NCBI GenBank assembly: GCA_031323845.1 | Contig: JAVIYP010000004.1 | Location: 14,512 to 78,511 of the forward strand | Direction of reading: 5' to 3' | Length of the DNA stretch: 64,000 nt | From: Bacteroidales bacterium | GTDB lineage: Bacteria > Bacteroidota > Bacteroidia > Bacteroidales > UBA7960 | In this document: in pieces, positions 42,401 through 55,800 of the stretch | Numbering within the stretch: position 1 is the first letter of the stretch | Layout of the letters: each line of letters opens with the position of its first letter | Made by a program: the position numbers and the translations under genes | Notes under the pieces: generated by a model | What the model was told of the DNA's origin: nothing | Seen by the model: the letters and a program-made list of their open reading frames with translations, nothing else | Database searches by the model: none

Positions 42401-43322
42401 ACACTCCAAAACCCTTAAGATACGTTATACGCTGACCAAGCCGATTAAGTCGCAAGAGCTGCTACAATACCTGAAAAGCCTTCAAAACGAATATCTTCCG
42501 GTAAAAGAAAAAAAAGAGAAGAAAGACAGCATCAAGAATATGTTGATTGATAAGGAGGCACAACCGCTCATAATGCTGGTAGAAGATGTTGAGATGAACA
42601 TTTTGCTGATTAAAACACTCATCAGTCAACGTATTCCCGGGGCAACCTTCCTGGAGGCGTCAGATGGCAAGGAAGCCCTGGAGTTATTAAAAACCAACAC
42701 CCCCGATCTGATTTTCATGGACGTACAGATGCCGGTCATGGATGGATGGGAAACAACGCGAATTCTTCGGAAAAATGAAGAAGGCACAAAGCAGCACATT
42801 CCTGTAATAGCGCTTACAGCCAGGGTGTTGAAAGAAGAAATCGAGAAATGTGTCGAGGCTGGCATGGATGGCTTTCTGGGTAAACCAATAAATCATCAGG
42901 CCCTGTATGAGACCTTATTAAAGCATCTTGGCGGTGATTATAAAAACGGCAGCCGTAAGCAACCGGCTGCGGTAGGGCACGTGGAGAAGGATTGGGATAA
43001 AACGGCATTGATGGACCATCTCGATGGTGACACCCAATTGATGAAGGACTTCATAACGGACGTATTGAAACAGTTTCCTCAATACCTTAACGGGCTTAAG
43101 AGCGCCGGTATGAACCACAACGAAAACCAGATAAGCAGATATGCACACAAGCTAAGGGGTGTTGCGGCCAATTTGCGTTTCAGCCGTCTGGCAGATATTG
43201 CCGAAGAGATTGAAAAAACGACCGCCACCACTGCTGAAGGCGACTTGTCGGGCATTGAAAAAGCACTCAAAGCCTGGGAAGACCTGCACCAAATACTTAA
43301 AGAGGAGCTGAAAAATCTTTAA
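39471..43322 (+). CDS. Hybrid sensor kinase: PhnD/phosphonate-binding-like periplasmic domain - TM - 2 PAS - HisKA - HATPase - 2 REC - Hpt
   Basis: AAVDPSSMGGW, THDNVV..DAG, LYPEWPFAA; SHEIRTPLNG; two REC Asp motifs; AHKLRG Hpt; GTG start. Confidence 0.93.
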   Translation: MKLSALTERIIIPNKPGAYVGFVLVWLFSCLVCSVQLHADCQSDWATSKIAHPEVINIGVLANRGDSLCYVEWGPTADYLSYHLAPYKFKIVPLGFDEFLDEVKAPHGRLSYMSANPSYYAYLEHYGLARRLATLLIPGEPMPQSVFGGVLFTKANRHDIRELADLRGKTLAAVDPSSMGGWHAALREIKESGRLRLHELESVHFVGTHDNVVLQVVSGAFDAGTVRSSQIERMISEGLINRDDINIINSKAEQQPDYPYLLSTRLYPEWPFAALKGADEELSRRVSVLLMQMDADDPAAIALRGAGWTFPEQYAEVHNLLNVLSLPPYEATRIRVRDVIMAYWPWLTTLLILSLGMAGFIIYILILQRKTTTISGKLVKSEQKFRELFEHAPVAMVVHDRNTAEVLDANRHAIESYGFSTLEEFLNTDKWIDPPYSYDDVLYWFSRVRDEGPQQFEWKSRTVHGEYFWKDIKLQELELGNRVVMLSISYNITERKQAEDKLRESEQLFRNLTNNLSVGVVMISKDMEVMTINPKMREWFPRDDYNKCPRCYIAFNTPERSTPCENCPVAKTLVDGKTHTYEREAETHLGKKVLLITSTAITDINGEIIAAIEMADDITERKQTEKILIEAKAQAEEANKAKSEFLANMSHEIRTPLNGVIGFTDLLQKTSLNKTQRLYAENANTSALSLLAIINDILDLSKIEADKLELEIIEADMIRLMQEAIDIIKFHAAEKQLELLLNIDPAMPRFALVDPVRLKQILVNLLSNAVKFTEKGEVELRLGFEAIDENQGRFSVSIRDTGIGISEEHQKRVFDVFMQADTSTTRRYGGTGLGLPISGLLARKMGSRIELKSAPGEGSTFYFTLETSYRRGKMLDVRDIKEVKRVLLVDDNDQNRLILQHMFDFWGIHLTGCSGCKEAIEVLKESPPFDVIIMDYHMPETDGLETIRMIRQEPGLVPEEQNIILLHSSSDDPNIYKHSKTLKIRYTLTKPIKSQELLQYLKSLQNEYLPVKEKKEKKDSIKNMLIDKEAQPLIMLVEDVEMNILLIKTLISQRIPGATFLEASDGKEALELLKTNTPDLIFMDVQMPVMDGWETTRILRKNEEGTKQHIPVIALTARVLKEEIEKCVEAGMDGFLGKPINHQALYETLLKHLGGDYKNGSRKQPAAVGHVEKDWDKTALMDHLDGDTQLMKDFITDVLKQFPQYLNGLKSAGMNHNENQISRYAHKLRGVAANLRFSRLADIAEEIEKTTATTAEGDLSGIEKALKAWEDLHQILKEELKNL

Positions 43323-43408: not shown

Positions 43409-43591
43409 ATGAAACACGAAACCCACGGCAGCGGATCTGCGAGTGCAGTTTACGGTCTGGGCTTTATTGGCGCCCTCATATACTATATTTCAACTGCCGG
43501 CTCTTTTTGGATGGGTGCCTTAGGCATTTTGAAAGCCATCGTATGGCCCGCTTTTCTTGTGTATGAAGCGCTGAAAGCACTCGCCGCATAA
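43409..43591 (+). CDS. Small two-helix membrane protein (60 aa)
   Basis: ATG start in an A-rich context; AVYGLGFIGALIYY..LKAIVWPAFLVY resembles a widespread small hypothetical family (from recall). Confidence 0.75.
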   Translation: MKHETHGSGSASAVYGLGFIGALIYYISTAGSFWMGALGILKAIVWPAFLVYEALKALAA

Positions 43592-43748: not shown

Positions 43749-46685
43749 TTACATCCCCAGGAGTTTAACCGACAGCATCAATTGGCCCTGTGGTTTCTGA
43801 CTCTCTTCAAAAAGCCAGGCGTAACCAACCGACCAGGTGGTTTTCATATACGAGAGCATCACTATCTCTATATCCGTCTGAAAACCCGCGTTGAAAACAT
43901 GTCGCGACACATCGCTGCGATCGGGGTCGGTGAACAGGTGTGTGCCAAATAATGAGGTGTAAATATAGGTAGGATATATCCAGGTGGCACCGACGTTACG
44001 TGTTCGTAAAGGACGAAGGTTCAGTTCGCTCATGGTTCTTATGTAGTTGTGCGCAGGCAATGCATCGATTTCAGCACCCGGGAAAGCAAGACTGCCCCTG
44101 TATTGGCGTGGTTCGCGCCAATCGACATAGTTGTTCCGGAAACCACCCAGGTAAAAGTATGACAGGGCCGATTCCCTGCTGCCAAAGGACTGACCGGCGC
44201 TGTTACGGATCCAGAAACTGGTGTTCCTGATGCCGGGCACCAGGAAGCCCACGTCCTGGTTCGAAACGATGGACGGGTAAAACGAGTCGGCCGCATAATA
44301 GGCAACGCCTGAGACGCGCCAGTTATAGCCCGTTTCGTGGTCGACGCCACCGAGGGTACGGCGCAGTTTCGACATGTTGAAGCCGGCCGTAGCCGCCTGG
44401 AACTGTCTCATGGGCGACTCGATGTTCTGATGCAGTGGCAACACTTCAAGGTCGCCGTAATGATACACTCCAAAGCTGTAGCCGTAACGGAAGGGCTCTC
44501 TCAGCGTATAATTTCTGTCGTAGGAAATACCAACGCTATAACCGGCACGGCTTCTCTTGGTCGGGCCGAAGAGGTCGTAAAAGTCCGTGCGGTTCCAGGT
44601 GGCGCTCAGCTTCCAGTTCCAGTAGCGCCAGTCGAGATGGGCGTGCACCTTCTGTTTGTCTTCAAAGGAGCTCCATGGCGAAGTGGCCAGGAAGAGGTCG
44701 ATCTGGCTCAGCGACAGGGGGTCACGCCAGAGCATACGGTAACCGACGGCAGCCGTGTTTTTATAGCCTGTCAAGTCGGGCCAGGCGTTGGCCAGGAACA
44801 TCTCCCGGACCGGGTGATAGGCAACCTCCCGCACTCCGGTGGTGTCCACATGCGGTGGCGGCGGCAGCGACCATTCAGTCACCTGCGGGTTGCGCTCCAG
44901 CACATCCATCCCAAGAAAATAAATGGCATTGGCCTCATAAAGGACCTCCAGCGGAATGCGTCCCGGTTTCATTCCATCACGATAGAAGCGCAGCACCAGC
45001 AACGAATCTTCGCTGTACTGATAGGGCATGAAAAAGCCCGTTTCCGTATTGGACAGCAGGTCAAACGATCCGTCTTCAATGCCCACGCGCCACACGTTGG
45101 AAACACCGGTGTAGTATGACGTGCCAATGAGATATTCATTGCAGGGGGCAAACTTGAATTGCGTCAGCGTATTGTCGTCGAGCTTAAGCAGGCTGCGGTA
45201 GCGCGTATTGCCCATCTCCAGTTCCCGTATTTCGAAAAGCACAAGTTCCTGCTCGCCTCCGACGCCTGAAAGCGTGGCGGCGAGGTATCTTCCGTCGGAT
45301 GAGATGTCGAGGTCGAAGATGGCCTGGCCAAAGGGTGTTTCCCAAAGCGGCTCGATGCTTTCGTAGGGCTCGGGAAATTTCACCAGCATAGAATGGCCGT
45401 TGTCGAGGCGCACGCCCCAGATGCTGCGGTCGGCGCGGTTAAACACCAGGTCGCCGGTACGCGTGAAAGGCAGGATGGTTTCCTTGCGGCCGCTTTCAAC
45501 GTCAATGGCCACCAGGCTGCGGTACTTGTAGTTGTGCTCGGTGATGTAAACGATGTTGCTGTCGGGGTCGTAGGCCAAATGTGTGGAGTAATACAGGGCG
45601 GGTGTGTCGAGGGTTGCCAGCTTGCGGATGTCGCCGGTGCGGGTGTCAATTTCGGCTATTTGTGAGATGATGCCGGGGTAGTTGATGGCCATGTACATCT
45701 TTTCGGTGTCGTGGTTGTAGCGAAAGGTGGAGGCGTTGCCCAGAGGGTGCGCGGTGATTGGCTCAAAGGCGGTAAGCGGGTATTCCTTCACCCTGTTGAT
45801 GTTTTCTTGTTGAAACTGACGTTCGAAAGCGATCCACTCGTCCCAGGCCTGCCCTACCGGCTTGTCATAGACCTGCCTGAACTGCCTGGCATAAAAGGCC
45901 TTGCTGTCTTCCGAGCGCAAGAAGAAGTCGTGCAGCTTGTCAACGCCGTATTCCCTGGCCAGGTATGTGGTGAAGCGCGAGCCGTAGAGGTAGGCGTTGG
46001 CGCCTACCTGGAAGTCGAGTGCCGTGCCTTCGGTTTCGAGGCCCACTACTGAGTGGATGGGGGCATTTTCGTGCACGAGGCTGCGGAAGTACATTTCGTC
46101 GTAGTATCCCATGGTGCGACCGAGGCCTCCTGACATCCAGGTTTCCATGAAAATGGCGATGCCTTCCTGGTACCAGCGGGGGGCATACCATCGCGGCACG
46201 GTGGTGTAGCTCCACAAGGCGGAGAGCGGGTAGGCCTCGTCGCGGCGCACCTTGCCGAAGAAGGCCCGCCGCCAGCGTTCATCGCGACGGTTGGGCTTGT
46301 CGGTCATCACCACGTGCGTCAGCTCGTGGTTGAACAGCCACTGGAAACGCTCACTTGCCGGCAGGATGCTGAAAGCAAAGTTATACGGTCCGATGCCGAT
46401 GAACACCTGGTTGAGCGGCATGGTAATGGCACCGCCCGTGCCATAATCCTGGAAGTCGTTGAGCATCACGTAGATCTTGCCGGGGTCGTAGTCCCAAAGC
46501 TCCTGGTGGAAGTCCATCGCATTAAAGAAGGTGCGCAGCACGTGCGGCGTCATATAGGTGTAGCGGCCGCCAAAATATACCAGCTGTACGCGTTCGGTGT
46601 CGATCTGGGTGATCAGTTGTGCCCTGGATTCATTCACTGACAGCAAGCTCAAGAGCAGGGCTGCGATGAATAGTCTGGTTTTCAT
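43749..46685 (-). CDS. Outer-membrane protein: gluzincin metallopeptidase + TolB-like beta-propeller + C-terminal beta-barrel (978 aa)
   Basis: Signal peptide; HELTH plus downstream WYQEGIA third ligand; propeller blades (FDLDISSDGRYLAA, FAPCNEYL); amphipathic C-terminal strands. Confidence 0.85.
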   Translation of the reverse strand: MKTRLFIAALLLSLLSVNESRAQLITQIDTERVQLVYFGGRYTYMTPHVLRTFFNAMDFHQELWDYDPGKIYVMLNDFQDYGTGGAITMPLNQVFIGIGPYNFAFSILPASERFQWLFNHELTHVVMTDKPNRRDERWRRAFFGKVRRDEAYPLSALWSYTTVPRWYAPRWYQEGIAIFMETWMSGGLGRTMGYYDEMYFRSLVHENAPIHSVVGLETEGTALDFQVGANAYLYGSRFTTYLAREYGVDKLHDFFLRSEDSKAFYARQFRQVYDKPVGQAWDEWIAFERQFQQENINRVKEYPLTAFEPITAHPLGNASTFRYNHDTEKMYMAINYPGIISQIAEIDTRTGDIRKLATLDTPALYYSTHLAYDPDSNIVYITEHNYKYRSLVAIDVESGRKETILPFTRTGDLVFNRADRSIWGVRLDNGHSMLVKFPEPYESIEPLWETPFGQAIFDLDISSDGRYLAATLSGVGGEQELVLFEIRELEMGNTRYRSLLKLDDNTLTQFKFAPCNEYLIGTSYYTGVSNVWRVGIEDGSFDLLSNTETGFFMPYQYSEDSLLVLRFYRDGMKPGRIPLEVLYEANAIYFLGMDVLERNPQVTEWSLPPPPHVDTTGVREVAYHPVREMFLANAWPDLTGYKNTAAVGYRMLWRDPLSLSQIDLFLATSPWSSFEDKQKVHAHLDWRYWNWKLSATWNRTDFYDLFGPTKRSRAGYSVGISYDRNYTLREPFRYGYSFGVYHYGDLEVLPLHQNIESPMRQFQAATAGFNMSKLRRTLGGVDHETGYNWRVSGVAYYAADSFYPSIVSNQDVGFLVPGIRNTSFWIRNSAGQSFGSRESALSYFYLGGFRNNYVDWREPRQYRGSLAFPGAEIDALPAHNYIRTMSELNLRPLRTRNVGATWIYPTYIYTSLFGTHLFTDPDRSDVSRHVFNAGFQTDIEIVMLSYMKTTWSVGYAWLFEESQKPQGQLMLSVKLLGM

Positions 46686-46734: not shown

Positions 46735-46845
46735 TTTCACAGAGTTTCACGGAGTTTGACACAGAGTTTCACAGAGTTTTGTCTCTGTGAGACTCTCCCG
46801 CATGGGCGGGACAGGTGTGAATGACTCAGTGTTACTCTGTGTAAC
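46735..46845. repeat. CACAGAG tandem/inverted repeat cluster in the leader of the OM peptidase gene
   Basis: tttcacagag x2, tttcacggag, tttgacacagag, then inverted ctctgtga and ctctgtgt; GC hairpin tcccgc-atgg-gcggga at 46796-46811. Confidence 0.8.
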
Positions 46846-46925: not shown

Positions 46926-46950
46926 TACGAAAAAAGTCATTCCCTGTTGC
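46926..46950 (-). promoter_or_regulatory. ECF-type promoter P4: GCAAC-N16-CGTA, overlapping a terminator hairpin
   Basis: Revcomp gcaac agggaatgactttttt cgta; same spacing as P1-P3. Confidence 0.65.
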
Positions 46951-46966
46951 CGGGGAATGACTTTTT
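46931..46966 (-). terminator. Intrinsic terminator after repeat protein B
   Basis: 14-bp perfect stem aaaaagtcattccc/gggaatgacttttt with U tract. Confidence 0.85.
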
Positions 46967-47023
46967 ATGCAGTAAATGTTCACAGAATTTGAGTGTCATT
47001 GCAGGTTTTGTTACGAGCATGCT

Positions 47024-48331
47024 TTAATCGAGAGTGAAGCCTGTGCGAAGCTGTTCATTATCAAATAAAACTGAGCCGCGCAGGAAGTCGCCGTCGCGTA
47101 TCATTTCGGAGCCGCGCAGCACTTCGTTCATCTGCAGCAAAGGAGCATCCAAAGACCGCAATTGTTCGCTGTCCAAAATGTTGAACCTGAGTTGTTCGTT
47201 GTCAAGGAATGCATCCCTGAGTTGTGAAGCATCGGTTATGCCCATGTCGCGCAATTGTTCTGCATCCCAAATAGGCAACAGGAAATTCAGCTGTTCTGTA
47301 TCAAACGCTGCAAGTTGTTCGAAGTCCAATGCACTCGCATCGTCGAGCCTGACACCATCAAGGAAACTCATCACATCATTGAGTTGTTCTGAGTCAAGTA
47401 CGGCTACGCGACGGAGATTTTCAGCGTCAAGGATGCCAAAATGACGTAACTGTTCGGCATCAAACCTCGTAAGGTCGCGCAGGTGTTCCGCATCCTGTAC
47501 CCTGAAGTTAACACGGAGTGCTTCAATGTCCATGATAACAAAATCCAGGAGTGCTTCATTCAGGAAGGCAATATCTCTGAGGTTTCCTGCGTCATTAAGT
47601 ATAATCATCCGGAGGGTTTCCGCATCCAGCTGGGCAAACTCACCCTCTTCATCCATTACGTCTTTGGCGAGCAGGTGTTCGAGCACCGGGCGGTTGTCGT
47701 TCACGATGTTGTGCATCAGCATGTTTGCGAAGAGCTGGTCGTGGGCAAGTGTTAGCTGTGGAAATTCTGCTTTTGGATGTGTTTTGAAGAAGCTTTCGAC
47801 GTCTGTCATGAAGTCGAACACCACGCCGTTGCGAACCTGTGTTTGTGCGATGGCGCTACCGGCGCTGTTGAGCACGGTGCGTATGGCAACGCGGTCCTTT
47901 TCGGAGAGGTCGGAGAGTACCCCGATGGCTTCGAGGATGCGCAGGCGGGCGTTGTCAAGGAACAAGGCGTACTCTTCCATACGGTTAAGGGTGCGGGCGC
48001 TGTTGGTGCGAAAGTCGTTGTGCTCTCTTCCTGCAGCAATTGCGAAGCGCAGGTCGTCGCCCATCTTGATGTTGGCGGCATACTCATAGGCGAGGTAGTT
48101 GCGGTATGCTTCGCGCATGTTTTGGTCGGCCAGCAGCTCGTTGCGCAGCTCAATGTCGGCTTCGGTAACGCGGACGTTGCGGTACTGGTCAACGCGGCCA
48201 ATGGTGCCGGCAGCCTCCCATATACTTAGTCCGGTAATGCGCGGATTTATCATGGCCAGCCCTATTGTCATGCCCACTACTAGACCTAATGCAAGGCCAA
48301 CAAGGAGAAATATGATCTTAGTCTTTTTCAT
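47024..48331 (-). CDS. Membrane-anchored protein B with ~16-18 hDxEQL C-terminal repeats
   Basis: Start MKKTKII (ATG 48331; the ORF-track 48472 start lies upstream of promoter P3); N-terminal TM; clearly paralogous to 48624-49658. Confidence 0.9.
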   Translation of the reverse strand: MKKTKIIFLLVGLALGLVVGMTIGLAMINPRITGLSIWEAAGTIGRVDQYRNVRVTEADIELRNELLADQNMREAYRNYLAYEYAANIKMGDDLRFAIAAGREHNDFRTNSARTLNRMEEYALFLDNARLRILEAIGVLSDLSEKDRVAIRTVLNSAGSAIAQTQVRNGVVFDFMTDVESFFKTHPKAEFPQLTLAHDQLFANMLMHNIVNDNRPVLEHLLAKDVMDEEGEFAQLDAETLRMIILNDAGNLRDIAFLNEALLDFVIMDIEALRVNFRVQDAEHLRDLTRFDAEQLRHFGILDAENLRRVAVLDSEQLNDVMSFLDGVRLDDASALDFEQLAAFDTEQLNFLLPIWDAEQLRDMGITDASQLRDAFLDNEQLRFNILDSEQLRSLDAPLLQMNEVLRGSEMIRDGDFLRGSVLFDNEQLRTGFTLD

Positions 48332-48388
48332 GGCTGTTCTTTTTTGAAAATAATTGATTGATTTCCAGCATTGGTTTGCTGATAAAAT

Positions 48389-48413
48389 TACTAAAAAAGT
48401 TCGTAAAAGTTGG
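48389..48413 (-). promoter_or_regulatory. ECF-type promoter P3: CCAAC-N16-AGTA
   Basis: Revcomp ccaac ttttacgaactttttt agta, 58 nt above the ATG. Confidence 0.75.
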
Positions 48414-48529
48414 TGTTTTTTGACAAAAAATTTCATTATCAATATGATAGCGGCAAATCTCTTAGAATTCAAAAACGGGTTCTTCGCTTCTATTCAGATA
48501 TAAAAGCCTCTATACCATCCAAAAAAACA

Positions 48530-48568
48530 ATAAACAGTCATTCCCCGCTCCCGGGAATGACTGTTTAT
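48530..48568 (-). terminator. Intrinsic terminator after repeat protein A
   Basis: 16-bp perfect stem ataaacagtcattccc/gggaatgactgtttat; duplicate of 46931-46966 including the adjacent 3' UTR. Confidence 0.85.
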
Positions 48569-48623
48569 GCAGTCAATCTTTACAGAATTTGATTGTCATT
48601 GCAGGTTTTTTGCAAGTGATGTG

Positions 48624-49658
48624 TTAGTAAGGATGTATTCCGCGAAGTTGTTCAGTATCAAAGAGAATTTGGCCACGCAGGAATTCGCTGTTGCGCATCA
48701 TTTCCGAGCCACGCAATACCTCATTCATGTTTAGCACACCCTCGAACGATTGCAACATTTCACTGTCAAGGATACCAAAATGCTGAAGCTGCTCTGCGTC
48801 AAAAAATTGCAAAAACTGGAGCATCCCTGCCTGGTCAAGAAAACCAATACTTAACAATGCTGGATTATCAAGCAGGGCCTGTAATGATGCCTCGCCTAGA
48901 CCGATAATGCTCTGAAGTTCTCCCATATCCAACAACAGCTTGTCCCTGAGTGTTTCCATGTCTAACTGCGCCAGTTCACCGTCTTCATCCATCAATTCTT
49001 TGGCAAGCAGATGTTCGAGCACCGGGCGGTTGTCGTTGACCATGGTACTCATGAGCACGTTGGCAAAAAGCTGATCGTGGGCTTTGGCCAGTTCGGGGTG
49101 TTGCGCGGGAGGGGTTGTGTCAAAGAACCGCTCCACACCCAGCATGAAGTCGAACACCACGCCATTGCGAAACTGGGTTTGCGCCAGGGCATTCCCGGCA
49201 TTGTTCAGCACGGTGCGGATGGCCACCCTGTCTTTGTCTGACAGGTCGGTTATCACAGTCAGGGCTTCCAGTATGCGAAGGCGCGCATTATCAAGAAACT
49301 CAGCGTAATCTTCCAGTCCATTAAGAGTGCGGCGGTTTTTCAGGCGAAAATCAGAGGCATCATAGCCCGCCAGAATCGCGAACCTGATGTCTTCGCCCAT
49401 TTTAATGTTGCTTGCATACTCGTAGGCCAGGTAGTTCCTGTATGCCTCGCGCATATGTTCATCTGACAGCAGTTCGTTGCGTAGTTCGATGTCGGATGCC
49501 GTTACACGTACATTGCGGTATTGGTCAATGCGGCCAATGGTGCCTGCAGCTTCCCTCAGGCTCATGCCCGGATTGGTTAAAGTAAGGCCCACCATAAGTC
49601 CTATGGCAAAACCGATAACAATACTGAATACAACGGCAAGAATTTTTGGAGTTTTCAT
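48624..49658 (-). CDS. Membrane-anchored protein A with ~8-9 hDxEQL C-terminal repeats
   Basis: N-terminal TM, EAAGTIGRIDQYRNVRVT, helical core near-identical to protein B. Confidence 0.9.
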   Translation of the reverse strand: MKTPKILAVVFSIVIGFAIGLMVGLTLTNPGMSLREAAGTIGRIDQYRNVRVTASDIELRNELLSDEHMREAYRNYLAYEYASNIKMGEDIRFAILAGYDASDFRLKNRRTLNGLEDYAEFLDNARLRILEALTVITDLSDKDRVAIRTVLNNAGNALAQTQFRNGVVFDFMLGVERFFDTTPPAQHPELAKAHDQLFANVLMSTMVNDNRPVLEHLLAKELMDEDGELAQLDMETLRDKLLLDMGELQSIIGLGEASLQALLDNPALLSIGFLDQAGMLQFLQFFDAEQLQHFGILDSEMLQSFEGVLNMNEVLRGSEMMRNSEFLRGQILFDTEQLRGIHPY

Positions 49659-49692: not shown

Positions 49693-49717
49693 TACTTACA
49701 AAGATCGCAAAAGTTGG
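49693..49717 (-). promoter_or_regulatory. ECF-type promoter P2: CCAAC-N16-AGTA
   Basis: Revcomp ccaac ttttgcgatctttgta agta, directly after the anti-sigma stop codon. Confidence 0.75.
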
Positions 49718-49718
49718 T

Positions 49719-50474
49719 TTATTGCACAAAAAATTGTCTGTTATAGCTCAATCGTCCTTCCTGTAGCACCTCGAGCACAAATGGGCCGGTGAATCCGGTG
49801 TTTTTGTTAAGTACGATCTGATAATGGGTTTTACCCTGGACACCAAAGCTTATCCGGTCTGCCCGGACTGTTTCGTGCATTTCACGGCCGCTGAGGTACC
49901 GCGCACGTAACAGACGGTATGCTTCCGTGTCGAAAGAAAGGGTCACTTCAATGGGGTCATCGGCGGCTGCCGTTAGCACGAGGATCACCATGTTGTCAAC
50001 CACCATGGGATTTACCTGGACCTGCCAGTCGTCTTGTGCGAACGCCATCTTCTGACCCGACCGGGCGGCCATGGTGCCGGCCATTTCACGTGAGTCGGTA
50101 AGCAGACGACCCGGCTGTACCATCAGCGTAACCACCGAGCCCAGCAATATACCAATGGCCAGCATGGCAGCATAACGCAGGAGCGCCCTGCCCTGAAAAC
50201 GGATCATCAGCGGCAGGCTTTTGCTGTCTGAGCCAAACACGCGTTCACGGTCCTGCCTGATGCGCTCCATTACTGACGGGCTCATATCGGGCACCGCAGG
50301 AGCACGGACAAAATTACGCAGGGATGCATCAAGCTCTTCCATGTCGCGTAAATAGCGCCTGACATCCTCCGATTCAGACAGGATACGGTGCAACGCATCC
50401 AGTTCCTCCCGGCTGATCGTGCCATCGAGCTTCCGGTTCACAAGGACCTCCAGTTCAGATGATATCTTTGACAT
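49719..50474 (-). CDS. Single-pass anti-sigma factor
   Basis: Follows the ECF sigma; N-terminal ASD-like helices (LDGTISREE..LHRIL), one TM, periplasmic beta domain; no HxxxCxxC zinc motif. Confidence 0.8.
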   Translation of the reverse strand: MSKISSELEVLVNRKLDGTISREELDALHRILSESEDVRRYLRDMEELDASLRNFVRAPAVPDMSPSVMERIRQDRERVFGSDSKSLPLMIRFQGRALLRYAAMLAIGILLGSVVTLMVQPGRLLTDSREMAGTMAARSGQKMAFAQDDWQVQVNPMVVDNMVILVLTAAADDPIEVTLSFDTEAYRLLRARYLSGREMHETVRADRISFGVQGKTHYQIVLNKNTGFTGPFVLEVLQEGRLSYNRQFFVQ

Positions 50475-50541: not shown

Positions 50542-51102
50542 TCACGCCCTGCTGCTTTCAAAAAAACCCTGCCGTTCAAGTATGCCCTTTAAGAGTTTGC
50601 GTCCGTCATACAGCCTTGACTTCACTTTCTTTTCAGACAGGTCAAGCACTTCTGCAATTTCCGCATAGGAAAGTTCTTTAAAGTAATGCAGCACAATCAC
50701 TGCCCTGTAATTCTCCCCGAGTTCGCCCATTGCCCTTTGAAGCATCACGTCCCGCTCCTTCTCCATCACTGGCTTGTCAACACTGTCCGGGTTGCGACCG
50801 GCATCTTCAGGTAATCGTTCCAAACGCACAAAGCGCTGTGACTTTTTTATATGACTGATGGCCGTATTGATGGCGATGCGGTAGATCCAGCTGAAAAACT
50901 TACTCCGGTAGTTAAACGTTTCCAACTTTTCATAAGCCTTCACAAACACCTCCTGTGCCAGCTCCTCAGCCTCTTCGTGCTGCTGCAGCATCTGGTACAA
51001 CACATGGTACACTGCAGCCTGGTAATTACGCACCAGCAGCTCGTACTCCTGTATGTTTCCCGCCAGAATGCGCCGGATGACGCTATTTTCGTCGTTTTTC
51101 AT
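50542..51102 (-). CDS. ECF RNA polymerase sigma factor (SigW-like)
   Basis: Region 2 AEELAQEVFVKAY..FFSWIYRIAIN; region 4 LSYAEIAEVL..VKSRL; ATG 51102 preferred to TTG 51108. Confidence 0.95.
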   Translation of the reverse strand: MKNDENSVIRRILAGNIQEYELLVRNYQAAVYHVLYQMLQQHEEAEELAQEVFVKAYEKLETFNYRSKFFSWIYRIAINTAISHIKKSQRFVRLERLPEDAGRNPDSVDKPVMEKERDVMLQRAMGELGENYRAVIVLHYFKELSYAEIAEVLDLSEKKVKSRLYDGRKLLKGILERQGFFESSRA

Positions 51103-51108
51103 TAACAA

Positions 51109-51133
51109 TACGCCGTTGTGGTTAAAAAGTTGG
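51109..51133 (-). promoter_or_regulatory. ECF-type autoregulatory promoter P1: CCAAC-N16-CGTA, probably leaderless
   Basis: Revcomp ccaac tttttaaccacaacgg cgta ttgtta ATG. Confidence 0.8.
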
Positions 51134-51265: not shown

Positions 51266-52261
51266 TTAGCTGCTTAACTGGTTTAACTCCCAGAGTTCAC
51301 GATGGTTCATGCGCACCAGTGGCAGCAAGGCCATCTCGCCGGCTTTGCCTATCTGTTTGCGCAGCGCTTTTAGCTCCAGCAGTTTGTTTTTGATATCCGG
51401 CTCAACCAGCACCGGAAACCCGTTTTCCCTGAGCATCAGGTTTCGTTTTGCCTTGATGGACAACTCCAGGTACAGACTGAAAAAACAATACATGTCTACC
51501 AGCGTTTCCGGCTGGAAGTGCTCTTTCAGCGACGCGAGGTAGCGACCGGCCTTGGTGTCTCTGAATTGCCCCTGCCGGATCATGCGCAGCATGTCCACCT
51601 CGTTGCTGAACTCCACCTCAAGCCAGTTCTGGAGGTGGCGCGTGGTGTACATAAACACCACATAAAAAATAAGGGGTAGCAGAATGATGATCAGCAAGGT
51701 CATCAACAAGGGATCAAAAATAAAATGATTGAATGCTGAATGCAGCACCATGGCAACTAACAATCCTAATGCGCTGCCGGTTAAAAGGTTATTGTTGCGT
51801 TGCATCCCCTCAATGAGGATCATCGCAGCTATTGCCACAACACCACCATGCATGATGGCTGTGCCAAACCCCCTGACGATGGCCAGCAACACATTGAAAT
51901 CTGCCCCCAGATGAATATAATACCACAGGTTTTCAGCCAATGCAAAGCCTGTGCCTATGGCAAATCCGTAAATGGCCGCATCGATCATGAAACCGACCCG
52001 CCTGCGTGCCACCAACAGGAGAAGCAGCGAAGCCTTCAGCAACTCTTCAGAAACGGGGGCAATGTATCTTGTGAGCACATCAAAGCCTATGTTGTAAAAT
52101 CCAATTAAAAAGGAATTCACCAAATAAGCCAGTAAAGCTGAAACAACACCCCACGCCAAACACACAGCTAACAACCTTCTTGATACCAGTTTAAAGCTGT
52201 CGAGCAAAAAGAGACATCCCAAAAACAACAATACCGGGAAAAAGCCAAAGGCAATGATCAT
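51266..52261 (-). CDS. prsW: PrsW-family glutamic intramembrane protease
   Basis: Motifs PVSEELLK, GTGFALAEN, AIMHG, LHSAFN; multi-TM. Confidence 0.9.
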   Translation of the reverse strand: MIIAFGFFPVLLFLGCLFLLDSFKLVSRRLLAVCLAWGVVSALLAYLVNSFLIGFYNIGFDVLTRYIAPVSEELLKASLLLLLVARRRVGFMIDAAIYGFAIGTGFALAENLWYYIHLGADFNVLLAIVRGFGTAIMHGGVVAIAAMILIEGMQRNNNLLTGSALGLLVAMVLHSAFNHFIFDPLLMTLLIIILLPLIFYVVFMYTTRHLQNWLEVEFSNEVDMLRMIRQGQFRDTKAGRYLASLKEHFQPETLVDMYCFFSLYLELSIKAKRNLMLRENGFPVLVEPDIKNKLLELKALRKQIGKAGEMALLPLVRMNHRELWELNQLSS

Positions 52262-52757
52262 GCAGTGCGTCAGTTACATGTAACAAATCCGACAGGTAAA
52301 GAACCGGGGCAACCTGCTTTCATTAATGAAAGAGCCCCACGGTCTTCAAAACACGTTTACAGCACCGGTCAGGTTCGTGTATATATACACCAAATATACA
52401 ATAATTTTTTTTTATGCGAAAATACACACAGATGTAAAAGAATTCCAGGGAAGCGAGTTGAATCCTTCTGCTTTAAGTTCATTTGGCAAGTTCTTTGAAT
52501 AAAATGCAACAAGCATCAGTACTTCGCAACAAGACCTCTTAGATTCCGCAGCAGAAAACATCTTTCGTTTTCAGTGCGTACAGCAGGCATGTATGGTTAG
52601 ATTTTTTGCGCTATTATCCGCGGAAATAACAAACCCACAAGCACGCTGTATTAAAAAAAACACCATCAGTATAAAAACAAATATAAGCTGCAAAACCCCG
52701 GAAAATACAAGGTGGTTGTATTACAAAATTTTTCGTGTTTTCAGGTAAAAAAACATA

Positions 52758-52765
52758 TACCTTTG
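52758..52765 (+). promoter_or_regulatory. Housekeeping -7 element TACCTTTG
   Basis: TAnnTTTG match; supports the ATG at 52850 over the GTG at 52712. Confidence 0.55.
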
Positions 52766-52849
52766 CAATCATTTTTTAACAAAGGACATCCAATTGTTTC
52801 TCCGGCACAATCAGCGACCCGGACAGGCCTTATAACAAATCCTGATTGC

Positions 52850-55800
52850 ATGACACATATTGACTACAAAAAAATGATGATGAGCGCAACTTTTGGCGTG
52901 GCTCTTCACAAAACAAACCTGAACAAAGAAGGCAAACCGGTTGACTATACTTTTCTTGAGGCAAACAAGGCTTTTGAAAGCATGACGGGCCTGAAGGCCA
53001 GCAACATCATCAATAAAAAAGTTACCGAAGTACTGCCGGGTATCGAAAACAGTGATTTTAACTGGATAGATTTTTACGGGGAGGTAGCCCTTACCGGAAA
53101 GGCAAAAGATTTTGAACAGTATTCAGAGCCGTTAAAGCGCTGGTACAAGGTGTATGTGTATTCGCCCATGCGCGAATATTTCATTACAATTTTTACCGAT
53201 ACCACCCGTGAGAAGCTTAAGTTTGAGGAAATCGATCGCTTTTTCAGCATCAACCTTGACCTGCTGTGCATTGCCGACACCGACGGAAGTTTCATAAAAG
53301 TAAACAAAGCCTGGGGTGAAGTGCTGGGTTACAAGCCAGAGGATCTGGAAAAGAAGAAGTTCCTGTCGTTTGTACACCCCGACGACATGCAGGCAACGCT
53401 GGATGCCTTGCTGGAGCTGAAAGCAAACAAGCCTGTACTGAACTTCACCAACAGGTACCGGACGAAAGACGGGTCGTATCGCCATATTGAGTGGCGATCG
53501 CATCCATACGGAAACCTTATATATGCAGCGGCAAGGGACATCACGGAGCGTATCGAGGCAGAAACCAGGCTGCGTGAAACACAGAAGCGTCTGGCCGCCG
53601 CGCAGAAATTTGCAATGGTTGGCGCGTGGGAGTATGAGATCAACACGGGCAAATTGTTCTGGTCGAAGGAGTGTGAAGCGCTGTTTGGCCTTAAGGAAGG
53701 TGAGTTTGAAGGTACTTTCGGAGATTTTCTGAAACGGGTGCACCCGGATGACAGGAAGTTGGTAACAGAAACCAATCAGCCCATCACACAGTATTACGAA
53801 GCCAGGCCCCTGGAGTACGAGCATCGCATCATCAGGAAAGACGGTGAAGTGCGCTGGGTCAGGGAGTCGGCAGGTGCTGTAAAAGAATGTTTTGGCAAAC
53901 CCAAAAAAATTGTCGGCTTTGTGATGGACATTACCAGACAAAAAGAAGCCGAACAGAAACTGCAAAAAAGCGAAACCCGCTACCGGGGTCTCATCGAGTC
54001 ACAGAACGATCTGATTGTTAGGGTTGATGCAAGGAACCGGTTTACTTTTGTTAATGACGCCTACTGCGAAACCTTTGGAAAAACCCGCCAGGAGCTGATC
54101 GGCAAATCGTTTACACCCCTGGTGCATAAAGACGACCTGCCAGGCACGCTGGAGGCCATGAAAGACCTCGAAAAGCCACCATACCGGTGCCAGCTGGCGC
54201 AACGAGCCATGACCAAAGACGGCTGGCGGTGGATTCACTGGGAAGACAATGCCATCGTGGATGGCGATGGAAAAATATTGGAGATACAAGGGGTGGGCCG
54301 TGACATCACTGAGTTAAAAAAAGCTGAAGAGAAGCTGAAGATCAATGAGGCCAAGCTCAAAACGCTATTGGCGGAAACACCAGCAGTAGTTTACTCCTAT
54401 AACTTCAAAAACGGCGTTCCCGACATCACCTACGTTAATGAAAACGTAGAAAACATTTTGGGATTCAAACCGCAGCATTTCCTTCACGACTTTGAAACAT
54501 GGGCCTCGTGTGTACATCCCGATGACTTGAAAAACAACGCACACCGCTTCGAGAACATGGAAGAAAAACTGCATGCGGGCCAGGAGGAGTTTTTTGAGTA
54601 CAGGTTCATTGACAAACAGGGGAAATATCACTGGCTTTCTGACAGGCAAAAGGTGCTGGCCGATAACGATGGGAAACTATTTGTGATAGGCGTATGGATT
54701 GACATCACGCAGGATAAGAAAAACCGTGAAGCCATTGAAAACGAAGAAAAACTTCGCCAGATCATTGAAAATATGGATGGTGTGTTCTGGCTGCGGTCGG
54801 CCGACCGGCAGGAAATGCTCTATGTGAGCGATGCTTACGAAGCAATCTTTGGGAAGACGACAGAGAGCCTGAAAAAAAACCCGGCTTCCTTTATGGGAAT
54901 AATACATCCCGATGACAAGGAACGCGTTATGGCTTCCTATAACAACTTTCTTGAAACAGGCACTTTCAATGAAGAATACAGAATCATCAGACCTGATGAC
55001 AAACAGCGTTGGCTTCACTCTAAAGCCTTCCAGGTCAAGAACGAAGAAGGTGAAACCATCCGTTACGCCGGTTTTGTGACAGACATCTCACAGCAGAAAA
55101 AAACATCCGAACAGCTCAGGGAAACCTCCAGGCGATATAAAGCCGTCTTGAAGTACAGCCCCCTATTTGTCAGCGAAATCGATCTTAGCGGACGCTACCT
55201 GTTGGTGAATGAGGCACTGGCGGATTTTATCGGTAAGACAGCAAAAGAAATTACCGGAAAAACATTCAGCCAGGTCCTGAATCCCGAAACCGCATCGTTA
55301 TTTATGCAGCGCATCAAAGAGGTCAAAGCGACAGGTCAGCCGATCACCGTTGAAGACCAGTTCGAAACCGGCAATGGCACCCGATATTTTAGCTCTGTGT
55401 TATTCCCGCTGCTGGGTAAATCAGGAAAAGTTGCTTCCATCGGTTGCATTTCCAAGGACACCACTGATGTCAGGCTCGCCAATGCAGCGCTGACAGAAAG
55501 CGAAGAAAAATTCAGGCAAATTTCAGAAAGCATGGGTGAGGTGTTCTGGTTAAGGTCTGGCGATAATACCAGGATGCTTTACGTAAATCCGGCTTATGAA
55601 AAGGTGTTTGGCAGAAGCTGTGAAAGCCTTTATGCAAACCCCAATTCATTCCTTGATGCCATACATGACGCAGACAGGCCAGCAGTTATTGAAGGCTTTA
55701 AGATATTTGAAGAAACCGGAACCTTTGATATGGAATACCGGATTGTAAGGCCGGATCACGAGGTGAAGTGGTTGAGGGCGCAGACGTTCCCTGTTTATGA

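What the first reader, a model, noticed from the sequence alone, without database searches (positions are those of the whole stretch)
47024..49658. Tandem paralogs with length-variable hDxEQL repeat tails (~17 vs ~9 units)
Seen: near-identical helical cores, then tails (B 47024-47629, A 48624-48966) of 8-12-aa units starting h-D-x-E-Q-L (FDAEQL, LDSEQL, WDAEQL, LDNEQL...) with variable hydrophobic spacers. Both end in the shared block MNEVLRGSEM..FLRG..LFDxEQLR. There are no Cys, and no GG or KR sites. Inference: a constant motif with a variable spacer resembles multi-core peptide precursors cut by a dedicated protease (the neighbouring gluzincin), or a new solenoid/filament repeat.
Basis: partly seen in the sequence, partly recalled or inferred. 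Interest (0 to 1): 0.68.

Follow-up and report, generated by a model that had tools for sequence, protein, structure and literature searches.

The report
Repeat-tailed membrane proteins of a protease cassette
Two neighbouring genes encode inner-membrane-anchored proteins of an undescribed Bacteroidota family whose tails are variable-length strings of tiny capped helices (h-D-x-E-Q-L). They always sit beside a PrsW membrane protease and an outer-membrane zinc-peptidase/propeller/barrel protein, so they are most likely parts or substrates of an unstudied envelope proteolysis-signalling system, not antibiotic-like peptide precursors.

Summary
A (48624-49658, 344 aa) and B (47024-48331, 435 aa), both on the minus strand, are tandem paralogues. 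Their mature cores are 73% identical. The acidic, Leu/Phe-rich tails carry the motif h-D-x-E-x-L far above chance: 9 strict copies in B against 0.047 per 1000 aa genome-wide.

Neither protein matches Pfam, NCBIfam or PDB. They belong to a new family of about 279 clusters. Each member has:
- one TM helix;
- a conserved juxtamembrane GTIG-x3-(K/Q)YR...D-I-x-L module;
- a helical bundle;
- a tail whose units (spacing 8-12 residues, mode 11) are gained and lost whole.

In the AlphaFold model almost every tail helix starts right after the motif Asp, which fits an N-cap/hydrophobic-staple box.

The gene order PrsW, optional ECF sigma/anti-sigma, 1-4 family copies, then a Peptidase_MA/TolB-propeller/Omp85 protein holds in 36 of 37 evaluable loci. 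A, B and the outer-membrane gene each carry a CAAC-N16-MGTA promoter.

In other Bacteroidota classes the same juxtamembrane module with an unrelated 9-mer tail sits in that position, once verifiably fused to an anti-sigma domain.

My best reading is that the tail is the periplasmic, protease-addressed part of a regulated-proteolysis substrate. The mechanism is inferred. The RiPP-type multi-core precursor reading is not supported.

The parts
48624..49658 (-). Paralogue A, 344 aa. It has a TM anchor, the GTIG-QYR juxtamembrane module, a helical bundle and a short repeat tail.
   Evidence: ORF and translation P0001. There are 72 homologues and no Pfam or NCBIfam hit.
48624..48992 (-). Tail of A, residues 223-344. 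About 10 h-D-x-E-x-L-like units plus the shared C-terminal block.
   Evidence: Net charge is -16, 40% of residues are LIVMFWY, and there is no Cys.
47024..48331 (-). Paralogue B, 435 aa. Same architecture as A with a long repeat tail. The true start is the ATG at 48331.
   Evidence: The homologues' N-termini and the promoter at 48389-48412 fix the start.
47024..47656 (-). Tail of B, residues 226-435. About 16-18 units, mostly 11 residues apart, plus the shared C-terminal block.
   Evidence: In the AlphaFold model 8 of 12 tail helices start at motif Asp+1. Net charge is -28.
49479..49658 (-). N-terminal module of A: five cytoplasmic residues, a GxxxG-rich TM helix, NPG, and EAAGTIGRIDQYRNVRVTxxDIELRN. 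The equivalent module in B lies at about 48143-48331.
   Evidence: This is the most conserved stretch of the family. It is disordered in the model, with pLDDT below 50 over B residues 34-50. It is shared with tail proteins and anti-sigma fusions of other classes.
43749..46685 (-). Outer-membrane protein of 978 aa: signal peptide, Peptidase_MA-like domain (HELTH at 120-124, E174/E181), TolB-like propeller (about residues 305-580) and an Omp85-like barrel (about residues 630-978).
   Evidence: invariant H120, E121, H124, E174, E181; TolB top hits, E 2e-10; PF13485 in 9 of 24 orthologues, PF19143 in 10 of 24.
49719..50474 (-). Anti-sigma factor-like protein, 251 aa: N-terminal anti-sigma domain, TM helix, then a juxtamembrane EMAGTM motif.
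   Evidence: NCBIfam NF052375 at E 1.9e-6, below the curated cut-off. One search shows the G[TS][MIL] motif 12-16 aa after the TM helix across loci.
50542..51108 (-). ECF sigma factor, SigW-like.
   Evidence: Pfam Sigma70_r2 and Sigma70_r4_2. SigW models are the top NCBIfam hits, below cut-off.
51266..52261 (-). PrsW-family membrane protease, 331 aa.
   Evidence: PF13367 at E 1.4e-19. It is 50-80% identical to orthologues in the same position in related loci.
48389..48412 (-). ECF-type promoter-like site CAAC-N16-AGTA upstream of B. Sister sites lie at 49693-49716 (upstream of A), 46926-46949 (upstream of the outer-membrane gene) and 51109-51132 (upstream of sigma).
   Evidence: Four sites lie on the operon strand in its intergenic regions. 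The whole 64-kb window, both strands, is expected to hold 2.75.
46931..47009 (-). Duplicated 3' flank with a terminator-like hairpin downstream of B. The copy downstream of A lies at 48532-48609.
   Evidence: Direct-repeat families D5 (90% identity) and D11 (83%), and the sequence. The gene duplication carried the 3' flank with it.

Best explanation
SHOWN.
- A and B are a lineage-specific tandem duplication of an undescribed Bacteroidota protein family.
- Each is a bitopic inner-membrane protein with about 5 cytoplasmic residues and one TM helix, so the rest lies in the periplasm.
- The periplasmic part has three pieces: a conserved but unstructured juxtamembrane module (GTIG-x3-(K/Q)YR-x5-T-x-x-D-I-x-L), a helical bundle of about 170 aa, and an acidic, Leu/Phe-rich tail.
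- The tail is a variable number of 8-12-residue units. Each unit opens with h-D-x-E-Q-L, which reads as a helix N-cap (Asp) plus a hydrophobic staple (h and L, five residues apart), followed by a 1.5-2.5-turn helix.
- Units are gained and lost as whole blocks.
- The genes are fixed neighbours of a PrsW-type membrane protease and of an outer-membrane protein made of a Peptidase_MA domain, a TolB-like propeller and an Omp85-type barrel. In this genome they have their own ECF-type promoters.
- In other Bacteroidota classes the same TM and juxtamembrane module, followed by a repeat tail of unrelated sequence (9-mers such as ASEAFREAL, SAEVREALK, SPDFSRLMA, FxELAKNPx), occupies the same position. 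In at least one verified case it is fused to an anti-sigma domain.

INFERRED (about one chance in three for the full chain).
- The tail is the periplasm-spanning, protease-addressed part of a regulated-proteolysis substrate.
- It is bound, and probably trimmed unit by unit, by the periplasmic propeller-peptidase of the outer-membrane protein.
- The juxtamembrane GTIG-KYR module is the PrsW (site-1) target.
- Where the module carries an anti-sigma domain, this proteolysis releases the ECF sigma factor.
- A and B have no cytoplasmic domain and are sigma-induced. They would then be surrogate substrates that compete with the anti-sigma factor (feedback), or the envelope effectors of the response.
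- Two tail lengths (about 10 and 17 units) would give two substrates with different reach or lifetime.
For: - Motif enrichment is far above chance.
- The family is real: 72 homologues, 279 clusters at 50% identity, and only these two members in the genome.
- No Pfam, NCBIfam or PDB relative was found.
- The AlphaFold model gives a TM helix at residues 3-28, a disordered stretch at 34-50 and a bundle at 57-220 with pLDDT around 90. The tail forms short helices with pLDDT 35-81. Of 12 helices that start in the tail, 8 start at motif Asp+1 and 3 at Asp+2.
- The motif logo is hh-D(85%)-a-E(91%)-q-L(92%)-(R/G)-x-h. Spacings are 8 (31 cases), 9 (46), 10 (29), 11 (76) and 12 (17).
- Indels among B-type orthologues are whole units. 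Identity is 87% for the core, 75% for motif positions and 63% for other tail positions.
- Synteny holds in 36 of 44 loci. Seven of the other eight are cut by contig ends and one is an orphan copy.
- The outer-membrane protein is 53-88% identical across loci with an invariant HExxH and E. Its propeller is TolB-like. Orthologues hit Peptidase_MA_2 and Omp85_2.
- Four CAAC-N16-MGTA sites precede sigma, A, B and the outer-membrane gene.
- Sister lineages show the same pattern. Of 13 further loci of the outer-membrane protein, 11 have a repeat-tail protein directly upstream.
- The L056 protein matches the NCBIfam anti-sigma model at E 2.9e-11 and also carries GTIG-KYR and a 9-mer tail.
- The juxtamembrane module aligns across classes. 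hhalign gives E 3.9e-5 at 70% probability and E 2.4e-4 at 43%.
- The anti-sigma factors of 30 loci carry G[TS][MIL] 12-16 residues after the TM helix.
- From established knowledge, not tested here: in B. subtilis PrsW makes the site-1 cut in RsiW, and other proteases then trim it before RasP acts (background in PMC5358783 and PMC3498285).
Against: - No cleavage has been shown. Everything about proteolysis rests on gene neighbourhood.
- Tail confidence in the model is low to moderate (pLDDT 35-81), and the alignment in the repeat region is unreliable.
- The peptidase domain itself was modelled poorly (pLDDT 30-40 over residues 98-193). The window protein does not reach Pfam's threshold for Peptidase_MA_2. 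Only 9 of 24 orthologues give weak hits.
- The resemblance between the anti-sigma and A/B juxtamembrane segments is a 3-5-residue motif and could be chance. BLASTP finds nothing between the two proteins.
- Some loci have no sigma/anti-sigma pair (for example L003, L014, L022, L045), so the output of the module there is unknown.
- With 37-40% hydrophobic residues the tail could be a stably folded domain that is never cut.
- One genome (L050) has the outer-membrane gene without an adjacent tail gene.
Confidence: 0.45

Rival explanations
1. The tail is a purely structural or binding module. It would be a self-folding superhelix of one short helix per unit that acts as a spacer or tether between the inner membrane and the outer-membrane protein (TonB/TolA-like). 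Alternatively it would be a chaperone-like hydrophobic-client binder similar to STI1 'helical hand' domains. In neither case would it be cut.
For: - Hydrophobic content of 37-40% is too high for a typical disordered region.
- Helices are predicted for every unit.
- Hydrophobic periodicity peaks at 128 degrees (11/4). This means several buried faces per helix rather than one amphipathic face.
- Sister tails from L061 and G012 give summed Pfam hits to STI1-HOP_DP (E 5.8e-19) and UBQLN1. Those domains bind hydrophobic helices (PMC8010706).
- A/B are anchored by one N-terminal TM helix like TonB and TolA, and the partner carries a TolB-like propeller.
Against: - A/B themselves give no STI1 or DP hit.
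- Spacing varies from 8 to 12 residues, and whole units come and go between close orthologues. A precise fold tolerates that poorly.
- Tail pLDDT is low.
- The invariant zinc site next door needs a substrate.
Confidence: 0.3
2. Multi-copy peptide precursor. The outer-membrane gluzincin would cut at every motif and release many similar 8-12-residue peptides that act as signals or antimicrobials.
For: - A constant motif with variable spacers, beside a dedicated conserved peptidase with a peptide-gating-type propeller.
- A sister subfamily (L055, L059, L060) consists of a signal peptide plus up to 11 identical 16-mers (RSNSQLEE(M/L)G(T/A)R(L/Y)GFT). That looks precursor-like.
Against: - No modifying enzymes or exporter are conserved in 44 loci.
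- The protein has a membrane anchor and a large bundle that is better conserved than the tail.
- The conserved element is a helix cap.
- Distant members have degenerate tails while PrsW and the outer-membrane protein stay conserved.
- The same tail type is fused to an anti-sigma domain in L056. That points to signalling by destruction, not to a product.
Confidence: 0.07
3. Pentapeptide/decapeptide-type beta-helix. [quoted passage not shown]
For: The family profile hit a 1900-aa protein (P0181) only through its tail columns, at E 1e-20. That protein is Decapeptide/Pentapeptide_4, and its unit F-D-A-x-Q-L-K resembles F-D-A-E-Q-L-R.
Against: - hhalign probability is only 19%.
- A and B have no hit to these models. 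Among the 73 family members one reaches E 0.042.
- Spacing is 8-12 with mode 11, not multiples of 5.
- AlphaFold predicts helices, not strands.
Confidence: 0.03
4. Acidic cation- or proton-buffering repeats. The D/E-rich, membrane-tethered tails would hold Ca2+, Mg2+ or protons near the membrane, as an adaptation of alkaliphiles.
For: - Net charge is -28 (B) and -16 (A).
- Many close relatives come from soda-lake sediment bins, to judge by record titles with CSSed.
- The sigma factor is SigW-like, and SigW responds to alkaline shock in Bacillus (PMC5358783).
Against: - There is no known metal-binding motif.
- The family also occurs in Paludibacter, Prolixibacteraceae, Lentimicrobiaceae and digester bins.
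- Sister tails such as ASEAFREAL or SPDFSRLMA are not strongly acidic.
Confidence: 0.05

Closest known systems
Bacillus subtilis sigma-W / RsiW / PrsW / RasP regulated intramembrane proteolysis
   Same: A PrsW-family protease is encoded with a SigW-like ECF sigma factor and a single-pass anti-sigma factor. The promoter motif (C)AAC-N16-CGTA resembles the SigW consensus TGAAAC-N16-CGTA. The logic of a site-1 cut outside the membrane, followed by trimming, is a plausible template.
   Different: This is a diderm Bacteroidota system. It adds an outer-membrane zinc peptidase-propeller-barrel and one to four repeat-tailed bitopic proteins that have no counterpart in Bacillus. Nine or more loci lack the sigma/anti-sigma pair altogether. 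No cleavage has been demonstrated.
'WD40-Omp85' subfamily of the Omp85/TpsB superfamily (Heinz & Lithgow 2014, PMC4104836)
   Same: The neighbouring 978-aa protein has a TolB-like propeller in front of an Omp85-type barrel, as that paper catalogued.
   Different: The passage I read (the paper's only place mentioning WD40) does not mention the N-terminal HExxH peptidase domain, PrsW or the repeat-tail partner, and proposes a BamA-BamB-like role. I did not read the rest of the paper.
STI1 / DP / ubiquilin 'helical hand' repeats (PF17830, PF23195; Sgt2 C-domain, PMC8010706)
   Same: Both are arrays of very short capped helices rich in Leu, Met and Phe. The tails of sister lineages (SPDFSRLMA, FxELAKNPx) give summed hits to these models.
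   Different: A and B give no such hit. Their cap is Asp, not Asn/Ser-Pro. Their units are acidic, periplasmic and much more numerous. Homology is not shown.
Pfam Decapeptide (PF25296) / pentapeptide repeats
   Same: The unit F-D-A-x-Q-L-(K/R) is almost the same string.
   Different: Periodicity is 10 (5+5) there and 8-12 here. That family is predicted beta-helix and this one helical. HMM and profile-profile tests fail.
Multi-core RiPP precursors (for example cyanobactin PatE) and eukaryotic multi-copy peptide precursors (yeast alpha-factor)
   Same: Tandem short units with a constant element, beside a dedicated protease.
   Different: There are no modifying enzymes, no exporter and no conserved cleavage flanks. 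The protein has a membrane anchor and a large conserved domain, and a sister form is fused to an anti-sigma factor.
Paxillin LD motifs (LDxLLxxL) binding four-helix bundles
   Same: A short amphipathic helix opens with h-D and is rich in Leu. A helical bundle is present in the same protein, so binding of tail to bundle in cis or trans is conceivable.
   Different: This is an analogy from memory only, with no sequence or structural test. LD motifs are eukaryotic and cytoplasmic.

Membership tests
Pfam Decapeptide (PF25296) / Pentapeptide_4 (PF13599) | HMM match at or near the gathering score | tested here: not met
   A and B give no hit at E<=1. Of 73 family members, one reaches E 0.042. P0181, a true member, scores 1043 bits.
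Pfam Decapeptide (PF25296) / Pentapeptide_4 (PF13599) | Strict 5- or 10-residue periodicity, as a quadrilateral beta-helix requires | tested here: not met
   Motif spacings are 8 (31 cases), 9 (46), 10 (29), 11 (76) and 12 (17). AlphaFold predicts helices. hhalign probability is 19%.
Multi-core RiPP precursor (cyanobactin-like) | Co-encoded modifying enzymes, a dedicated subtilisin- or C39-type protease, or an exporter | tested here: not met
   The conserved neighbours in 44 loci are only PrsW, sigma/anti-sigma and the outer-membrane peptidase-propeller-barrel. Some loci add a partner-switching module.
Multi-core RiPP precursor (cyanobactin-like) | A short leader followed by cores flanked by conserved recognition sequences | tested here: not met
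   About 225 residues (TM helix plus helical bundle) precede the tail and are its best-conserved part. The conserved element is a helix cap inside each unit.
Multi-core RiPP precursor (cyanobactin-like) | Release of discrete peptides in vivo | not testable with these tools
   This needs peptidomics or in vitro digestion.
SigW/RsiW/PrsW-type regulated proteolysis cassette | A PrsW-family protease encoded with an ECF sigma/anti-sigma pair | tested here: met
   PF13367 at E 1.4e-19, Sigma70_r2 and r4_2 hits, and the anti-sigma model NF052375 at E 1.9e-6, below cut-off. The gene order is conserved.
SigW/RsiW/PrsW-type regulated proteolysis cassette | Autoregulated ECF promoter of the AAC-N16-CGTA type in front of regulon genes | tested here: met
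   Four CAAC-N16-MGTA sites lie on the operon strand before sigma, A, B and the outer-membrane gene. The whole window, both strands, is expected to hold 2.75. Activity was not tested.
SigW/RsiW/PrsW-type regulated proteolysis cassette | PrsW cleaves the extracytoplasmic part of the anti-sigma factor or tail protein | not testable with these tools
   Only a shared juxtamembrane G[TS][IML] motif supports it.
WD40-Omp85 (neighbouring 978-aa protein) | TolB-like beta-propeller N-terminal to the barrel | tested here: met
   The top Foldseek hits are TolB at E 2e-10 with probability 1.00. Propeller pLDDT is about 75-94.
WD40-Omp85 (neighbouring 978-aa protein) | Omp85-type 16-stranded barrel | tested here: inconclusive
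   PF19143 gives E 0.015 in the window protein and down to 1e-4 in 10 of 24 orthologues, all below cut-off. The model shows about 16 strands over residues 630-978, but no barrel-specific fold match was examined.
STI1/DP helical-hand repeats | HMM match to PF17830 or PF23195 | tested here: not met
   None for A, B or the 73 family members. Only the sister-lineage tails of L061 and L049 match.
New family: TM + GTIG-KYR module + repeat tail proteins | An N-terminal TM helix followed within about 15 residues by GTIG-x3-(K/Q)YR...D(I/V)xL | tested here: met
   G42, T43, I44, G45, Y50 and R51 are invariant or nearly invariant in 73 sequences. The module is also present in proteins of other classes.
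New family: TM + GTIG-KYR module + repeat tail proteins | A gene directly upstream of a Peptidase_MA-propeller-Omp85 gene, with PrsW in the cluster | tested here: met
   36 of 37 evaluable loci, plus 11 of 13 further loci found through the outer-membrane protein.

The most novel reading that the evidence does not exclude
The cassette is a trans-envelope proteolytic 'fuse'. The repeat tail of an inner-membrane protein reaches the periplasmic propeller-peptidase of an Omp85-type outer-membrane protein and is consumed unit by unit. Only when the tail is gone can PrsW cut the juxtamembrane GTIG-KYR module. Where an anti-sigma domain is attached, that cut switches on the ECF sigma factor. Tail length (number of units) would then set the delay or threshold. 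A (about 10 units) and B (about 17 units) would be sigma-induced decoy fuses that reset the system. This would be a new way of reporting outer-membrane state to transcription. It would also be the first function for WD40-Omp85 proteins.
Probability: 0.12. Interest if true: 0.85.

Novelty: new variant of a known kind. Interest (0 to 1): 0.63.

Why it matters
The tail proteins, the PrsW protease and the zinc-peptidase/propeller/Omp85 protein form a conserved module. It is present in about 9% of sampled Bacteroidota genomes (36 of 401). I found no study of it. The outer-membrane protein type was catalogued in 2014 without a function.

The module joins three things that are usually separate: an Omp85-family barrel, a metallopeptidase and an anti-sigma-type membrane protein. 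If the inferred mechanism holds, it gives Bacteroidota an envelope-stress pathway that differs in its parts from both the sigma-E/DegS/RseA and the sigma-W/PrsW/RsiW pathways.

The tails are also an unusually clean natural example of repeat arrays built from a bare helix-capping box. Unrelated sequences (DxEQL 11-mers, ASEAFREAL and SPDFSRLMA 9-mers) fill the same slot. That suggests a physical property, not a specific sequence, is under selection.

Tried and rejected
- **Known families.** Pfam, NCBIfam and PDB searches, by single sequence and by profile, gave nothing for A, B and the family.
- **Fold of B.** Foldseek of the B model against PDB gave only generic helical bundles at E>0.4. The bundle is therefore not assigned to any sensor family.
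- **Recent tandem duplication.** TRF and repeat searches show only weak 18-46-nt similarities (61-84%) inside the tails. The units are old.
- **Continuous amphipathic helix.** The hydrophobic-moment spectrum has no signal near 100 degrees (B 2.59 against shuffles 3.61±1.34; A 0.91 against 2.52±1.23). It peaks at 128 degrees. I reject an apolipoprotein/LEA-like 11/3 helix. I first miscounted the G012 repeat as an 11-mer; the spectrum showed it is a 9-mer.
- **Decapeptide/pentapeptide beta-helix.** Rejected.
- **Anti-sigma homology to A/B.** BLASTP finds nothing. A strict regex for the shared juxtamembrane motif found it in only 4 of 30 loci. A look at the sequences showed a looser G[TS][MIL] motif in nearly all. 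This is suggestive but short.
- **DUF1118 hits.** Five of 73 members hit it (best E 1.6e-5). I treat these as repeat-composition noise.
- **Literature.** Searches for the cassette (PrsW with Bacteroidetes, ECF or genomic context) found no description.

Full report
**1. What is there**

The region lies in a minus-strand gene row:

| Gene | Coordinates | Size |
|---|---|---|
| PrsW-family protease | 51266-52261 | 331 aa |
| SigW-like ECF sigma factor | 50542-51108 | 188 aa |
| Anti-sigma-like protein | 49719-50474 | 251 aa |
| Paralogue A | 48624-49658 | 344 aa |
| Paralogue B | 47024-48331 | 435 aa |
| Outer-membrane protein | 43749-46685 | 978 aa |

The listed ORF of B starts at a TTG at 48472. 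The homologues begin at MKK(T/S)K, and a promoter-like site lies inside the extension. I therefore place the start at 48331.

A and B are 58% identical overall and 73% over the mature core. The duplication carried the 3' flank with its terminator-like hairpin. The two copies, 46950-47009 and 48550-48609, are 90% identical.

**2.

- B's tail (residues 226-435) contains 12 strict D-x-E-x-L motifs and about 16-18 units when degenerate ones are counted.
- A's tail (residues 223-344) contains 4 strict motifs and about 10-11 loose units.
- Both tails end in MNEVLRGSEM..FLRG..LFDxEQLR.
- The tails have no Cys and no GG, are strongly acidic (net charge -28 and -16) and are 37-40% hydrophobic.
- The strict motif occurs 9 times in B and twice in A. 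It occurs 85 times in all 9787 six-frame ORFs of the 2.9-Mb genome, or 0.047 per 1000 aa.
- At the DNA level the units are not recent copies.

**3. A new family**

Neither protein matches Pfam, NCBIfam or any PDB sequence, singly or as a profile.

A search of 5.8 billion proteins found 72 relatives, all unnamed or 'hypothetical'. An exhaustive profile search found 279 clusters at 50% identity. Genome records place them in uncultured Bacteroidales, Prolixibacteraceae (including Mangrovibacterium), Paludibacter, Lentimicrobiaceae and Sphingobacteriia bins. Many close relatives come from bins named CSSed in their record titles.

The family is patchy. Only 1 of 301 evenly sampled genomes of the class has it, and this genome has only A and B.

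The alignment shows these invariant or nearly invariant residues:
- glycines of the TM helix (G20, G24, part of a GxxxG run) and P30;
- the stretch E-A-A-G-T-I-G-R-V-D-Q-Y-R-N-V-x-x-T-E-x-D-I-E-L-R-N;
- scattered bundle residues.

The AlphaFold model, built from 73 sequences, has mean pLDDT 70:

| Residues | Feature | pLDDT |
|---|---|---|
| 3-28 | TM helix | not stated separately |
| 34-50 | disordered segment, the most conserved stretch | below 50 |
| 57-220 | helical bundle | about 90 |
| tail | short helices | 35-81 |

Foldseek finds only generic helical bundles at E>0.4.

**4. Anatomy of the tail**

Over 47 family tails the logo is hh-D(85%)-[AS]-E(91%)-[QTK]-L(92%)-[RGQ]-x-h. The spacing between motifs is 8 (31 cases), 9 (46), 10 (29), 11 (76) and 12 (17).

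In the model of B, 12 helices start inside the tail. Eight start exactly at the residue after the motif Asp, three at Asp+2 and one at Asp+3.

From general knowledge of helix capping (not tested here), I read the motif as follows:
- Asp is the N-cap.
- The hydrophobic residue before it and the Leu five residues later form a hydrophobic staple.
- Glu and Gln sit on the first turn.
- Where Gly follows Leu, as in the DAEKLG-type tails of other lineages, the helix would stop after about 1.5 turns.

The hydrophobicity spectrum has no alpha-amphipathic signal (B 2.59 against shuffles 3.61±1.34) and peaks at 128 degrees, that is 11/4. The tail is therefore not one long amphipathic helix of the apolipoprotein kind.

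Among B-type orthologues (71-88% identical), insertions and deletions are whole units or blocks of units. Identity is 87% in the core, 75% at motif positions and 63% elsewhere in the tail. More distant members keep a periodic x-x-(E/Q)-x-L-(G/N/S) pattern but lose the sharp motif.

**5. Context**

In 36 of 44 related loci the order is PrsW, then optionally sigma and anti-sigma, then one to four family copies, then the 978-aa protein's orthologue. Seven of the remaining loci are cut off by contig ends. One is an orphan copy. At least nine loci lack the sigma/anti-sigma pair.

The outer-membrane protein is far better conserved (53-88% identity) than the tail proteins (26-68%). H120, E121, H124, E174 and E181 are invariant in it.

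Its model has a poorly resolved N-terminal domain, a confident propeller and a barrel of about 16 strands. Foldseek's top hits are TolB at E 2e-10. Nine of 24 orthologues hit Peptidase_MA_2 and ten hit Omp85_2, all weakly. This fits the 'WD40-Omp85' subfamily catalogued by Heinz & Lithgow (PMC4104836).

CAAC-N16-MGTA occurs four times on the operon strand, in front of sigma, A, B and the outer-membrane gene. The whole window is expected to hold 2.75. A, B and the outer-membrane gene are therefore probably the regulon of this sigma factor.

**6. The wider pattern, which changed my reading**

A lead from earlier notes of this scan made me look at orthologues of the outer-membrane protein outside the family's range. 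They occur in 36 of 401 sampled genomes of the phylum, mostly in other classes.

In 11 of 13 further loci the gene directly upstream encodes a protein with a tandem-repeat tail of unrelated sequence. Eight of these have a TM helix and the same GTIG-x3-KYR...D(I/V)xL module. The other three (L055, L059, L060) have a signal peptide and a shorter R(F/Y)R-type motif. Of the two remaining loci, L050 has no such gene and L053 is cut by the contig end.

| Locus | Tail unit | Note |
|---|---|---|
| G012 (L049) | FxELAKNPx, 9-mer | PrsW gene directly downstream of the OM gene |
| L058 | ASEAFREAL, 9-mer | separate anti-sigma gene |
| L056 | SAEVREALK, 9-mer | fused to an anti-sigma domain |
| L061 | SPDFSRLMA, 9-mer, about 40 copies | sits directly after the sigma gene |
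| L052, L057 | Ala-rich repeats | L057 sits directly after the sigma gene |
| L055, L059, L060 | 16-mers on a signal-peptide protein | no TM anchor |

The L056 protein matches the NCBIfam anti-sigma model at E 2.9e-11. The window's own anti-sigma factor hits the same model. L056 is therefore an anti-sigma factor whose periplasmic half is this module plus a repeat tail.

The module aligns across classes. Profile comparison gives E 3.9e-5 at 70% probability and E 2.4e-4 at 43%. The stand-alone anti-sigma factors of 30 loci also carry G[TS][MIL] 12-16 residues after their TM helix.

**7. Interpretation**

Three things are conserved across lineages:
- a membrane anchor;
- a juxtamembrane linear motif that is disordered in the model;
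- an array of 9-11-residue capped mini-helices of almost any sequence.

These always sit next to PrsW and an outer-membrane peptidase-propeller. That pattern is what one expects of a substrate or sensor arm of a proteolytic relay. The tail would be addressed by the outer-membrane protein's periplasmic domains. Propellers of this kind bind linear motifs in TolB and gate unfolded chains in tricorn and S9 peptidases, which also appear among the fold hits. The juxtamembrane motif would be addressed by PrsW.

When an anti-sigma domain is attached, the outcome would be sigma activation, as in sigma-W/RsiW/PrsW. A and B have five cytoplasmic residues and are themselves sigma-dependent. They would then be competing substrates (feedback) or effectors.

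None of the cleavage steps is shown. I give the identity statements about 0.9 and the full mechanism about one in three.

The main rival is a non-cleaved structural tether or chaperone-like binder. It is supported by the high hydrophobicity and by STI1/DP-like hits of sister tails (PMC8010706).

The multi-core precursor reading is weak for A and B. It is somewhat less weak for the 16-mer signal-peptide subfamily. The decapeptide/pentapeptide beta-helix reading fails on periodicity and on profile tests.

**8. Limits**

- The tail alignment used for folding is unreliable in the repeats.
- No model coordinates could be inspected for packing.
- No multimer prediction was possible.
- The phylum-wide sample of sister loci is small (13 loci).

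Noticed in passing
window 46926-46949 and 46931-46966 (minus strand): The terminator-like hairpin after B (gtcattccc-ggcaac-agggaatgac followed by T6) contains CAAC in its loop, with CGTA exactly 16 nt later. A promoter-like site for the outer-membrane gene therefore overlaps the terminator. The duplicated hairpin after A (48532-48568) lacks both elements.
   Followed up: partly
L015 (PWLT01000464.1): A 3.1-kb contig binned as 'Hyphomicrobiales bacterium' carries the PrsW, sigma, anti-sigma and family-gene row at 62-80% protein identity to the window. This is almost certainly a Bacteroidales contig mis-binned into an alphaproteobacterial MAG.
   Followed up: no
L001 12104-12976; L012 10035-11000: In two loci a second family copy lies downstream of the outer-membrane gene instead of upstream. 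L028 and L029 have four tandem copies with degenerate tails.
   Followed up: partly
L054, L055, L059, L060 (genomes G611, G377, G653, G307): In three of these loci (L054, L055, L059) the outer-membrane protein is a longer variant of about 1210-1220 aa; in L060 it has the usual 980 aa. All four are preceded by a small signal-peptide protein made almost entirely of 16-residue repeats that are identical or nearly so, for example RSNSQLEEMGTRLGFT repeated 11 times. This is the most precursor-like form of the partner. Parts of these records read as X/N (masked).
   Followed up: partly
P0211 (476 aa family member from the representative library): Its tail is about 30 copies of the pentapeptide GSNT(V/I) instead of DxEQL-type units. 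A completely different repeat therefore sits on the same core.
   Followed up: no
L001-L005, L046 flanks: A partner-switching set (NMT1-like binding protein, dCache-HAMP-SpoIIE phosphatase, HATPase_c_2 kinase, STAS protein) lies next to the cassette in several genomes. In the window its place is taken by two large hybrid histidine kinases (39471-43322 and 52712-57040).
   Followed up: no
G633:C78:9131-11497; G490:C44:55035-57947: The outer-membrane protein orthologues in two genomes contain in-frame stop codons (three and one). They are probably pseudogenes or assembly errors.
   Followed up: no
window 43409-43591 (+): A 60-aa ORF encodes a Gly-rich, two-helix, small-membrane-protein-like sequence just downstream of the outer-membrane gene on the opposite strand. 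It has no Pfam hit.
   Followed up: no
window 46738-46779 (minus strand, upstream of the outer-membrane gene): Tandem 22-nt copies of cacagagtttcac(g/a)gagttt lie in the 5' region of the outer-membrane gene (repeat family D12). Their function is unknown.
   Followed up: no
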